In this document: positions 8,843-35,300 of the stretch, piece by piece
How the letters are laid out: every line of letters begins with the position of its first letter
Position numbering within the stretch: the stretch's first letter is position 1
Virus genome (UHGV): UHGV-0192467
Direction: 5' to 3' (one strand)
Origin: a virus
Length of the DNA: 42,538 nucleotides
Program-made: the position numbers and the translations under genes
The notes under the pieces: model-generated
Database searches by the model: none
What the model was told of the DNA's origin: nothing
Seen by the model: the letters and a program-made list of their open reading frames with translations, nothing else

Positions 8843-9178
8843 ATGAAACAGACGGCATACAGCGGCGGCGAATCGGTGGTGGGCGAGATCATCCGCACGG
8901 CGGAGCGGTCGGCGCTGAAGCACGAGGGCGAAAACGGGCTGCGCACGCGCCTGACCCGGCTGGTCAAGCGCTACGAGAAGGAATTCCGAGGCAAGACGGC
9001 CTTTCTGGCCGCCAGCGCGGCGGTGGAGCGGAAGCGGCTCAACGAGCGGCTGGACGTGCTGATGCTGAAAAACGCGCCGGACGAATGGCTGGCGAGGCTC
9101 TGGCACGAGATGCACGCACTGGACATTGCGGCGCAGCTGCTGATGGGAGGGCGCGAGGGGTATGTGGGAATTGCCTGA
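8843..9178 (+). CDS. hypothetical helical protein
   Basis: AGGAGG RBS; 111 aa. Confidence 0.75.
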   Translation: MKQTAYSGGESVVGEIIRTAERSALKHEGENGLRTRLTRLVKRYEKEFRGKTAFLAASAAVERKRLNERLDVLMLKNAPDEWLARLWHEMHALDIAAQLLMGGREGYVGIA

Positions 9179-9194
9179 GGGCACCATTGGGGGG

Positions 9195-9416
9195 AAACGA
9201 AACGGAATAGAAGTGCTGCGAACAGCAATGGAGAAGCAAGGCGCTGCAGGGAACAGCAGAGCAACGGAAAAGTTGAGCTCTGATATGAGCGGACAGGGAA
9301 ATGGGACGATATGCAATGCGCCGAGCTGACATGGAATTGAATGGATACGCGTGGCGAGGCGAAGAGACGGAAAAGCAATGACAGGCGATGAGCAGCGGAG
9401 ATAAGGAAAAGACACG
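9195..9416 (+). repeat. periodic pentamer array (putative guide-like ncRNA)
   Basis: 43 consecutive pentamers ending in G, 41/43 starting with A or C; single extra G at 9205, 9231, 9267, 9298, 9334, 9370, 9406; junction consensus ANGGARWWG in 7/7. Confidence 0.85.
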
Positions 9417-9434
9417 CACAAGGAGGAAGCCCGC

Positions 9435-10028
9435 GTGAAAGAAATGACAATCACGATCACCCTGACAGAGGAAGCATTGGGCATGATGCCCGCGAACCCT
9501 GAAATCTACCGCGACTACATCGCCAGCAATGCGCCCGACGCGGCGAAGCTGGCGGAAGAGATCGAAGAAAACGGCGTGGACGCGATGGTGGAGAACGGCA
9601 CCACCGTTTTCCCGAGGCTGGAGGACGGTCGCCCGTTCTTTTGGGACTACCAAATTCGTGGGATGTTTAAGGATTCGATCGGCATGCTTCGCCGCGTTCC
9701 GGGGACGGCGTGCAGCAAGGTCAAAGCCTACAAAAAGATCGTCGACGGTCTGATTTTTGTTCGGGAGCGCAGGATTCCCGTGGAGGTGTGCGGCAAGATG
9801 GGTAACTGTCAGCGCGCACTGCGCACGGATGGCCCGACGGGCAGCCACACCGCGCTGGCCAGCAGCGAGACCGTTCCGGCGGGCAGTATGATGGCGCTGA
9901 CGATTGTGATGCTGACAGACGATCTGGAGGCAGTCGTGCGGGAATGCCTGGACTACGGCGCACTGCGCGGCCTCGGACAGTGGCGCAATTCCGGCAAGGG
10001 CCGGTTTACGTGGAGGGAAGTATGCTGA
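9435..10028 (+). CDS. stand-alone Cas7-like RAMP-fold protein
   Basis: AGGAGG RBS, GTG start; ITITLTEEALG, PFFWDYQIRGMFK, ETVPAG and C-terminal Gly-rich loop GLGQWRNSGKGRF. Confidence 0.8.
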   Translation: MKEMTITITLTEEALGMMPANPEIYRDYIASNAPDAAKLAEEIEENGVDAMVENGTTVFPRLEDGRPFFWDYQIRGMFKDSIGMLRRVPGTACSKVKAYKKIVDGLIFVRERRIPVEVCGKMGNCQRALRTDGPTGSHTALASSETVPAGSMMALTIVMLTDDLEAVVRECLDYGALRGLGQWRNSGKGRFTWREVC

Positions 10029-10186
10029 CGCAGATCATCAAGGCGGTGCTCATCGCTTACATTTTCCTGATCGGCGGCATTGCCGGTTACAACCTTGCCC
10101 TGCTGGGCTTCGGCCTGCGGAGCTTCGACGGAGAGTTTGAGGAGGAGAGCGACAATGGACAGAATCGCGACATGCAGCATCATTAA
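10022..10186 (+). CDS. small membrane protein
   Basis: GGAGG RBS; single TM segment. Confidence 0.6.
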   Translation: MLTQIIKAVLIAYIFLIGGIAGYNLALLGFGLRSFDGEFEEESDNGQNRDMQHH

Positions 10187-32372: not shown

Positions 32373-35300
32373 TTACGATCTACGACAGCCGGGAGACGGA
32401 CTTTTCGACGCTGGGTCTGTGCGTATTGCAGCCTACGGAATGCACAATCGAAGGCGAAGAAAACGGAATGATGGAGCTGAGCATGACCCATCCGATGGAC
32501 AAGGATGGGCGATGGCTCAATCTCGCCGAATACAACATCATCCGCGCGCCCGCGCCGGTGCGCGAAACGCCGCTAATCCGCGTGCTGGACAACCCGGGCG
32601 CGTCGGGCAAGACGGCCACGCGGACGATCTGCAAAGTGAAAACCTACACGGGCAAGCGGCTGAGACTGCGCGCGAAGCCCAGCACCAGCGCAAAGGTGCT
32701 GGGCTATTATGCGCCCGGAACGGAGGTCGTGCGGCTGAGCGTCTCCGGCGACTGGGCGCAGGTGGTGATCGTAAAGGGCGGCGCGTCGGGATGGATGAGC
32801 AACGAGCGCCTGCAGGTGGTGCGCACGGAGACGGAAAACGTCTCCGGAAGCGGCACCGAGAACGTCAGCAAGTGCATCGAGCCGCGGCAGACCCGCGAAC
32901 AGCTCTTTCGCATTTGCGAGGTGGAAACGGACGACGAAGCCGGTCTGGTGTACGTCACGGCCAAGCACATCTTTTACGATCTCGCATACAACACAGTCAA
33001 GGGTGACTATTCCCCGGACGGCGCGGCGGTCGGTGAGGTCTGCGCGCAGCTGCTGGCGCGGGCGCTCGATCCGCATGATTTTACGGTCTATTGCAACGCA
33101 GAGGGGACGGTCACCGGCGATTACGGGCGCAAGGGAATCGCCAGTTGTCTGCTGGAGAGTGAAGTCGGCGTGGCCGACCAGACGGGTGCGAAGATCGTGC
33201 TGGACAACTACGACGTGTTTATCCTGAAGGACGAGACGAGGGACAACGGCGTGGAAATCCGGCACGCGAAAAACATGACCGGCGCGACGCTGAAGAAGAA
33301 CGTGGAATCCACCATTACCCGCATCGTGCCGGTGGGCAAGGACAAAAATGGTGACCCGCTGCCGCTGCCCAACGGCGAGTATGTGGAAACGCCGCGGGCG
33401 GCGAGTATCCCGGTGATCCACAGCAAGGAAATCGAATACGACGTGAGCGTCGGGAAGAACGAGGGCGAGTACAAGGACAACGCGGCCGCCTATGCCAAAC
33501 TCAGAGAGCTGGCAACGGCAGATTTTGCGGACAACGCGCTGGATGCGGTAACGGTCGGCCTCGACGTGGACTTTGTCATCCTGGAAAACAGGCACTCGGA
33601 GAGCTACGCGGCCTATGCGGCGCTGCAGACCATCCACATGGGAGACACGGTGCGTGTGGTGTCGTCCCGCTCCGGGATCGACGCAAAGCTGCGCATGACG
33701 GGATTTACCTACGACGCGATGTATCCCAACGGTGGACGATACAAAAAGGTCAGGCTGGGACAACTGACCGACCTGAAAACGCAGGTATATGGCTTTGACA
33801 TCGCCCGAGGGACAACGCCGGGAAACAAAATCCTGCCGAACAGCCTGGACGGACAGGCGGCGCTGAAGAACGCCACCATCGGCTACGCGAAGATCGCCCA
33901 GGCGGCCATTGAGCAGCTGGCGGCGGACAGCATCGTGGCCATCCGGGCGGACATCCACGAGATCGTGGCGGGCAGCGTGACGACGGATCAGCTGTATGCC
34001 GACCTCGCCAGACTGGCCGTGGCGCAGATCACCACGGCGAACATCAAGGAGGCCAATATTGACTGGGCGCAGATCGCCGAGCTGACGGCGCAGATCGCGA
34101 ATATCTCCAAGGCGCAGATCACGACGGCGAACATCAATGCGGCCAATATCAACTGGGCGCAGATCACGTCCCTGTCTGCGGCCATCGCGGATATCGCGAC
34201 GGCCAAGATCGGCGAAGCGGAGATCAAGTCGGCGCAGATCACCGATCTGGAGGCGGAAGTCGCGCGCATTGCGGCGGCGAAGATCGCCGTGGCGGACATC
34301 GACTGGGCGCATATCAAGGACTTGGTGGCGGGCACGGCCATATTTACCGCGGGTGTGGGCGACAAGCTGCATATCGCGCGGCTGGCCGTCACCGAGGCGA
34401 ATATGGTCAGCCTGAGCGTGGGCGAGCTGCTGGTCAAGGGGCAGGACGGCTCGTTTTACTCCGTATCCGTGGACGCGAATGGGAACATCGTCACCGAGAA
34501 AAAGCAGGTCGTGAACAGCGACGTGAAAGACCTTTCCATCAACGCCGGGGAGAAGATCATCGAAGGCACGGTCACAGCGGCATGCCTCAATGCCAACGAC
34601 ATCTTTGCCAACAACGCGACCATCAAGCAGCTCATCGCGGCCAACATCGACGTGGACACGCTGTTCGCGCGGGAAGCGACTATAAATTCGATCAACGCGA
34701 TGGATATTCGCGGGAACAAGTATTTGCAGCTGTATGTGACGGACAAGGTTGACGGCATCGCCGTCGGCGGGCGGAACCTGCTGCGGAACACGAATCAGGG
34801 AACGGTCAACTGGGACTGGTCTATGCAGACAGGTGGGAAAACCATCGAAGAGTATCTGGATGGCGGCGTGCGCGCAGTTAAGATGACGAGGGACGCTACG
34901 CCTCATGCGGGATGGAGCGTTATATCCTACGCAATTGGAAAAGACGCATACGCCCTGCTGGAACCGGACGCGGAGTATATTGTCAGCATGGACTACAAGT
35001 CCACAGTCGCGGCCCCTAATGGTATCAGCGTCAATATTTGTACCGGAGAGGCTACGGATCATGCAATCCAGACCGCGACATACGATCAGGCGATACCGGC
35101 AGATGAATGGACGCATATCGCAGTGCCAATTAAAACGAAGTCTGCACTCCCTGCCTTCAATTATCAGCTTGTATACCTTACGGGTTTTTCCTCTGCCGTC
35201 AACTCAGTTCACATCTTCAAAAACCTGAAGCTCGAAAAGGGCAACAAGGCGACGGACTGGTCGCCTGCGCCGGAGGATATTGAGGAACGAATGAGCGCGG

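What the first reader, a model, noticed from the sequence alone, without database searches (positions are those of the whole stretch)
9205..9411. The array is punctuated into ~36-nt units, possibly six separate guides
Seen: a single extra G resets the phase at 9205, 9231, 9267, 9298, 9334, 9370 and 9406, giving units of 26, 36, 31, 36, 36 and 36 nt (1+5n). Every junction matches ANGGARWWG (7/7), while unit interiors are unrelated to each other. Inference: the junctions act as processing or nucleation sites, like CRISPR repeats, and each unit is one guide. If pentamer positions 2-3 are the readout, the units spell AT-AG-TG-AC-AA; GA-AA-GC-AG-AC-AG-AA; AA-TG-TC-TA-GC-CA; AA-GA-TA-AA-GC-GC-CA; AT-AT-TA-GT-GA-GA-GA; AA-AA-CA-GA-GC-GG-TA. 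I found no self-match by eye, but that search was not exhaustive.
Basis: partly seen in the sequence, partly recalled or inferred. Interest (0 to 1): 0.85.

Follow-up and report, generated by a model that had tools for sequence, protein, structure and literature searches.

The report
Phage VIPR guides reading three bases
This stretch is a five-base-repeat array beside a Cas7-like gene in a gut-type phage, matching the recently described VIPR systems; extra Gs divide it into what are likely separate short guides, and related arrays suggest this branch likely reads three DNA bases per repeat with no gap instead of the published two-plus-skip code.

Summary
Observation confirmed: G recurs every 5 nt and an extra G resets the phase at all seven stated positions, plus 9194. 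The array lies directly before a lone 197-aa Cas7-like gene (9435-10028); a sister phage lacks both. The layout fits the 'staggered vrRNA arrays' of VIPR (Yoon 2026, Fig. S18 legend), which this scan has also met on other DNA. 159 of 160 related loci carry such arrays. The nine-letter junction motif is overfitted (256 of 2320 junctions).

New: joining pentamer positions 2-4 without gaps gives natural-DNA-like strings (1277 units, z 6-8; other read-outs z 3.8 or less). They are enriched for promoter -10 and Shine-Dalgarno motifs, and guides of five loci match a 5-bp repeat in replication genes of other mobile elements. The signal stops at junctions (z 0.0 against 3.4 inside units), supporting one guide per unit. 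So the branch likely reads three bases per repeat, position 4 more weakly.

Limits: no target found for the window's six units, no RNA data, signal one third of real DNA. Verdict: new variant of a known kind.

The parts
9194..9416 (+). Staggered pentamer array (M-N-N-N-G repeats, M = A/C), predicted vrRNA region
9194..9204 (+).
9205..9230 (+). Unit 1, 5 pentamers (15 target nt if positions 2-4 are read)
   Evidence: target not found
9231..9266 (+). Unit 2, 7 pentamers
   Evidence: 15-mer scan gave 40 viral hits at chance level
9267..9297 (+). Unit 3, 6 pentamers
   Evidence: target not found
9298..9333 (+). Unit 4, 7 pentamers; its positions 2-4 joined contain a perfect -10 hexamer
   Evidence: scans at chance level
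9334..9369 (+). Unit 5, 7 pentamers; its positions 2-4 joined contain GGAGG (Shine-Dalgarno-like)
   Evidence: scans gave no host-matched target
9370..9405 (+). Unit 6, 7 pentamers
   Evidence: target not found
9421..9426 (+). Ribosome-binding site of the vipr gene, 8 nt before GTG
   Evidence: sequence
9435..10028 (+). Stand-alone RAMP / Cas7-like gene (Vipr-like, 197 aa) with thumb hairpin and G-loop
   Evidence: AlphaFold2 pLDDT 79; Foldseek Cas7/Csm3 E about 1e-7; weak profile alignment to SUSP1 Vipr, E 0.018; 4371 homologues
9175..10072 (+). Cassette (array + vipr + start of next gene) replaced by about 35 bp in sister phage G001
10022..10159 (+). Small hydrophobic gene whose homologue directly follows the upstream ORF in G001; not a conserved partner

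Best explanation
The stretch is a five-base-repeat array next to a lone Cas7-like gene, and it likely works as a VIPR cassette in which each G-delimited unit is likely one short guide that likely pairs three bases per repeat with a gap-free 15-24-nt DNA site to silence competing mobile elements. Shown: array, Cas7-like fold, co-occurrence in relatives, absence from a sister phage, changes by whole pentamers and units, statistical DNA-likeness of positions 2-4. Inferred by analogy with SUSP1 Vipr: one protomer per pentamer; the fixed G and following A/C are held by the protein; position 4 (the place of the first G of GGY) has lost base-specific contacts and pairs, more weakly, with the base that canonical VIPR skips. 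The extra G restores a GG start, breaks filament register and so delimits guides, by cleavage or simply by out-of-phase filaments. Inferred targets in relatives: replication-initiator genes, promoters and ribosome-binding sites of other phages and satellites. Silencing is inferred from the published system.
For: Arrays in 79 of 80 viral and 80 of 80 genome loci; +1 slips 2447 against -1 slips 130. Period 5n+1 is what a 1-nt overlap of GG-started RNAs gives (Fig. S18 legend; my inference). Positions 2-4 joined: Markov z 6.1-7.8 against pentamer shuffles and 6.0-7.5 against permuting position 4 given positions 2-3; other read-outs z 3.8 or less; holds within loci, without repeated triplets, forward minus reversed, and with scaffold dependence kept. 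Extended -10 motif 11 units against 1.95 / 3.9, AGGAGG 17 against 4.4 / 6.2. Host-matched replication-gene loci: excess match +0.169 +/- 0.042 and, in a fresh set, +0.120 +/- 0.045 with 10 units at +2 or more and 0 at -2 or less. Units of L079, L113, L135, L157 and L078 match a 5-bp repeat in replication genes (15/15, 21/24, 23/30, 20/24, 16/18). Held-out position 4 at sites chosen on positions 2-3 only: z 3.0 (14 units) and 3.7 (17 units). G-loop D is Q in 47 of 47 homologues while W and R are kept. Closest clade (47 units incl. the window): position-4 permutation z 2.7.
Against: No target for any of the window's six units (96/97, 102, 115-117). Signal is 306 bits against 945 for real DNA chunks. 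The simple pair position 4 to next position 2 is not significant alone (p 0.1). Reversed strings also score z 3-5. In one search held-out position 4 matched only 0.30 against 0.19-0.30 in shuffles, and only selection on positions 2-3 gave excess hits (87 against 46-59). Order-shuffled controls reached z 2.5. Gapped read-outs also showed small excess (+0.066, +0.067). One search includes L373, found by one guide family's own pattern. No excess for the 55 closest-clade units in a third set or in pooled loci. Position 4 is the most mutable (106 changes against 71 and 84). Closest-clade pentamer-shuffle z is only 1.8. No RNA data.
Confidence: 0.6

Rival explanations
1. Staggered VIPR array using the published rule: only positions 2-3 pair, one target base is skipped. 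Position 4 matches the skipped base only as a trace of how guides arise (for example templated from target DNA) or through weak contacts.
For: Only selection on positions 2-3 gives excess hits in replication genes; position 4 is most mutable; signal is one third of real DNA; the preprint lists NNNNG among alternative repeats under one code.
Against: Position 4 carries target information in several independent tests; 5-7-pentamer units would specify only 10-14 nt, too few to avoid chance sites in a 3-Mb host (arithmetic); no templating enzyme is conserved beside the cassette.
Confidence: 0.25
2. The array is one long RNA (or mRNA leader) that is not cut; the extra G only limits filament length, and several mini-filaments act from one transcript.
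For: No conserved long junction motif, no stable fold (z -1.6), no promoter consensus before the array; staggered arrays were not among those confirmed by sRNA-seq in the preprint. Compatible with the three-base code.
Against: The preprint's legend speaks of processed vrRNAs; the last pentamer is biased (A at -3 in 1765 of 2320), as a cut or end signal might be.
Confidence: 0.3
3. Not a guide array: slippage-born repeat or decoy RNA that binds a Cas7-like anti-CRISPR or regulatory protein.
For: No target for the window's units; nearest solved folds are CRISPR Cas7/Csm3.
Against: Decoded strings match promoter, RBS and replication-gene motifs above controls; rapid unit turnover at 90% protein identity.
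Confidence: 0.05

Closest known systems
VIPR systems with staggered vrRNA arrays and NNNNG repeats (bioRxiv 10.64898/2026.04.26.720920, text, Methods, Fig. S17/S18 legends)
   Same: Phage-borne lone RAMP plus pentamer array; single fixed G; abutting units offset by one base; no self-targeting.
   Different: In the text I saw, no targets or code test are given for staggered arrays and all types are said to use GGY/NN or a related consensus. Here units are short (mostly 5-8 pentamers against 9-16), there is no evident 3' tail and no conserved vap, and position 4 carries target information.
SUSP1 and P. fulva type II VIPR (10.64898/2026.04.26.720920; structures 10.64898/2026.04.26.720927)
   Same: About 195-aa RAMP, G-loop W-R kept, 5 RNA nt per 3 DNA nt, predicted targeting of satellites and other phages.
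   Different: G1-reading residues differ (G-loop D to Q; the H aligns to M in a weak alignment); repeat is M-NNN-G, not YNNGG; inferred three paired bases and no skip.
Class 1 CRISPR Cas7/Csm3 with a multi-spacer array (Foldseek; mechanism recalled)
   Same: RAMP fold; array of variable guides gained and lost as units; contiguous target.
   Different: No cas genes seen beside it, no direct repeats; scaffold bases are interleaved within the guide.

Membership tests
VIPR | Stand-alone RAMP with thumb and G-loop outside a CRISPR locus | tested here: met
   alignment to SUSP1 Vipr is full-length but weak (E 0.018)
VIPR | Adjacent pentamer-repeat tract (YNNGG or the listed NNNGG, YNNNG, NNNNG) | tested here: met
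   NNNNG type, 39 of 39; 159 of 160 relatives
VIPR | Canonical GGY scaffold | tested here: not met
   only one G fixed; next base A/C; G-G only at junctions
VIPR | 1-nt skip code (NN read, third base ignored) | tested here: inconclusive
   three-base period and the weight of positions 2-3 fit, but the skipped position is informative
VIPR | Expressed vrRNA bound by Vipr; silencing | not testable with these tools
   only Logan contigs; the one RNA run laid did not cover the array
VIPR | Accessory vap gene | tested here: not met
   no neighbour shared widely across 161 loci (largest cluster 40, an HTH); cassette is array plus vipr. The preprint says 'typically'; six vaps for seven types
VIPR staggered arrays (Fig. 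S18) | Abutting vrRNAs overlapping by 1 nt | tested here: inconclusive
   period 5n+1 fits the legend by my arithmetic; the figure itself is not held and RNA ends are unseen
VIPR types I-VII | Place in the authors' Vipr phylogeny | not testable with these tools
   Data S4 and reference set not available
CRISPR-Cas | Direct repeats with spacers and cas operon | tested here: not met
   no repeat array by TRF; no cas family among 17 window proteins scanned

The most novel reading that the evidence does not exclude
A large gut-phage branch of VIPR uses a gap-free triplet code (two scaffold bases, three paired bases) and writes new guides from target DNA into a multi-guide array by an unknown process: a phage adaptive-immunity-like system intermediate between VIPR and CRISPR Cas7.
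Probability: 0.15. Interest if true: 0.95.

Novelty: new variant of a known kind. Interest (0 to 1): 0.72.

Why it matters
VIPR is presented as defined by a noncontiguous two-plus-skip code. A branch with at least 4371 homologues that reads all three bases would show the code is tunable by a few protein residues, bring VIPR a step nearer to contiguous CRISPR pairing, and explain how 26-36-nt guides can be specific. It makes targets of thousands of gut-phage guides searchable by plain alignment, points to replication genes, promoters and RBS of rival elements as the battlefield, and offers a very small (197 aa, about 36 nt) programmable DNA binder. One reporter experiment decides it.

Tried and rejected
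Gapped scan of window unit 4 in viral contigs: about 470 estimated hits, chance level by my estimate; only 17 of 64 parts were scanned; about a third of 120 hits fell in one protein family with no link to this host shown. Contiguous scans: unit 5, 2 hits, the 20/21 one lies antisense in a tail gene of an unrelated-looking phage; unit 2, 40 hits, best 20/21, chance; unit 4 in metagenomes, 45 hits, best 20/21, chance; unit 5 in 171 genomes at 3 mismatches, 8 against 4 control. Units 1, 3 and 6 were searched only in fetched loci. Gapped pattern of a relative's unit in 401 genomes: 18 against 8 control, none in a replication gene. Pooled local searches: no excess for any code; one search was swamped by loci fetched with the same pattern and is not used. 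Self-targeting: none. Sister phages as targets: none. Integrase scan found no relatives. -35 hexamer not enriched. Reads: contigs only, no RNA ends; small shares not used. No Pfam or PHROGs family for the RAMP. Protein-coding reading of the array rejected: unit lengths and indels are 5n or 5n+1. No host genome is held; the host stays inferred. Rows dropped before counts: the L004 second array (6-nt coding repeat), arrays under 100 nt, incomplete units, near-duplicate units (1581 to 1277), duplicate locus L510.

Full report
OBSERVATION. The window is a temperate phage genome (serine recombinase, HTH repressor, endolysin by Pfam; terminase name from a cluster member). Between an unknown ORF (8843-9178) and a 197-aa ORF (9435-10028) lies a tract with G every fifth base. 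The periodicity is far above chance (score 37; maximum 17 in 2000 resamplings, 10 in 377 other tiles). The nine-letter junction motif fits 7 of 7 here but only 256 of 2320 junctions in relatives. The general junction is a last pentamer biased to M-R-A-N-G, an extra G, then A or C.

THE PROTEIN AND CASSETTE. The 197-aa ORF has no Pfam or PHROGs family. Its AlphaFold2 model (pLDDT 79) matches Cas7/Csm3 chains at E about 1e-7. It aligns end to end, though weakly (E 0.018), with SUSP1 Vipr. It has 4371 homologues. Arrays of the same kind flank it in 79 of 80 viral and 80 of 80 genome loci: upstream 64, downstream 86, both 9, neither 2 of 161. Genome records are mostly Clostridia, some Coriobacteriia and others. 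No neighbour is widely shared. Sister phage G001 matches the flank at 97% and replaces 9175-10072 by about 35 bp; G412, sharing the endolysin, also has no match to the protein. The host is not known; DNA-level matches in the family of G561 suggest a Clostridia host (inference).

WHAT IS KNOWN. bioRxiv 10.64898/2026.04.26.720920 (I read parts 1, 2, 3 and 5 of 6, found passages, and searched the PMC supplement text; figures not held) defines VIPR, lists NNNNG repeats, and describes 'staggered arrays' whose vrRNAs overlap by 1 nt. RNAs that start G-G-M and end x-G, sharing one G, give period 5n+1, as here (my arithmetic). Staggered arrays were not among those confirmed by sRNA-seq, and targets are reported for types II, III and V only. 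10.64898/2026.04.26.720927 (parts 1-2 of 6) gives the contacts: first G read by an H and the G-loop D, second G by a thumb R and the G-loop W. 10.64898/2026.10.15.759431 and 10.64898/2026.10.21.760802 (passages only) model repeats as three fixed plus two variable bases. Earlier scan notes report staggered VIPR arrays on other DNA, and one a 'GY-NNN' branch with unknown rule; a word search for a three-base code returned nothing.

ARE UNITS GUIDES? Complete units have mostly 5-8 pentamers (1362 of 1718 unique). Of 18 distinct indels up to 45 nt between related arrays, 11 are 5n and 6 are 5n+1. None of the window's units recurs in phages whose protein is 90% identical. The decoded string looks like continuous DNA inside units (z 3.4) and not across junctions (z -0.03). 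This supports separate guides; whether the RNA is cut is untested (one search had contigs only).

THE CODE. Position 4 is as variable as positions 2-3. In 1277 de-duplicated units, joining positions 2-4 without gaps scores as natural DNA under Markov models trained on array-masked flanks: z 6.1-7.8 against pentamer shuffles, 6.0-7.5 against permuting position 4 given positions 2-3; the read-outs 2-3, 3-4, 1-3 and 1-4 give z 3.8 or less; reversed strings give 3-5. The effect survives within-locus shuffles (8.0), removal of units with repeated triplets (4.6 and 3.8), forward-minus-reversed scoring (4.3 and 3.3) and controls that keep scaffold dependence (7.7 and 6.9). It is one third of the signal of real DNA (306 against 945 bits). 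Decoded units hold the reverse-strand extended -10 motif (11 against 1.95 and 3.9) and AGGAGG (17 against 4.4 and 6.2; motifs recalled), not the -35 hexamer. AGGAGG occurs only in mRNA sense (17 against 0), which fits pairing with template-strand DNA, not mRNA (inference).

TARGETS IN RELATIVES. A gapped scan with one relative's unit hit a conserved motif of a protein next to a DnaC-like loader, among others in a 7.2-kb integrase-bearing element; 'replication initiator' and 'satellite' are inferred from context and recall. A second unit in the same phage group spells the next part of that motif. In loci of this gene from the matching host family, 300 units of that group show excess contiguous match of +0.169 +/- 0.042 (includes the circularly found L373) and +0.120 +/- 0.045 in 29 fresh loci, 10 units at +2 or more and none at -2 or less; gapped read-outs give +0.028 and +0.066. 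Units of five loci match a 5-bp repeat inside such genes (15/15, 21/24, 23/30, 20/24, 16/18), two of them again in a third set. At invariant codons the guides carry the right third base (TGG 27/27, ATG 24/27, GAC 24/27, GGC 20/27 sites), at others they do not (GGG 1/27, AAT 1/22). With sites chosen on positions 2-3 alone, held-out position 4 beats random bases at z 3.0 and 3.7, shuffled controls reaching 2.5; a looser version gave only 0.30 against 0.19-0.30. The G-loop D is Q in 47 of 47 homologues while W and R are kept, as expected if the first G is no longer read by the protein.

AGAINST. No target was found for the window's own units in four collection scans, one genome search and local sets (see Tried and rejected); the 55 closest-clade units show no excess in the third set, and the code is carried to the window by homology (53-60% identity to the group tested) plus a weak clade signal (z 2.7 and 1.8). 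Position 4 mutates most, and matching is not pairing.

VERDICT. A real VIPR-type cassette with the published staggered layout. The layout is known; the likely gap-free three-base read-out and the target classes are not in the text I could see. Confidence: VIPR-like guide system 0.92; units as separate guides 0.75; position 4 pairs 0.6. New variant of a known kind, interest 0.72.

Noticed in passing
window 9175-10072 against G001:C1:30892-30926: The cassette sits at the 5' end of a small hydrophobic gene and brings a replacement start, so the gene stays whole; a moron-like swap.
   Followed up: partly
L373 (7199 bp), L374, L375: Small gut elements with integrase, HTH repressor, replication gene, DnaC-like loader, sigma-like and terminase-small-like genes: candidate Clostridia phage satellites.
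   Followed up: partly
L081:4854-6321; L015 and L102 arrays: Very long array (1468 nt, 43 slips) with a block of several units duplicated; block duplications also in L015 and L102.
   Followed up: no
internal pentamers of all arrays: Position 4 purine favours C after the fixed G, pyrimidine favours A (G statistic 81); unexplained scaffold coupling.
   Followed up: partly
L164, L176, L187, L220 and about 40 more loci: An abundant phage protein family with a conserved seven-residue motif matches window unit 4 at codon positions 1-2; host link not shown, treated as chance.
   Followed up: partly
L622, L630, L636: My periodic-G mask flagged tracts in three prophage-like regions of the G561 family; at least L622 looks like another such array.
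   Followed up: no
L004:4370-4518: A 6-nt G-periodic repeat that is probably coding; excluded from all counts.
   Followed up: no
window 34021-34195: 45/90-nt tandem repeat inside the large tail gene.
   Followed up: no
L428 (G407): A unit shared by close relatives matches 13 nt of a -10-like site in G407 itself; p 0.25, possibly chance.
   Followed up: no
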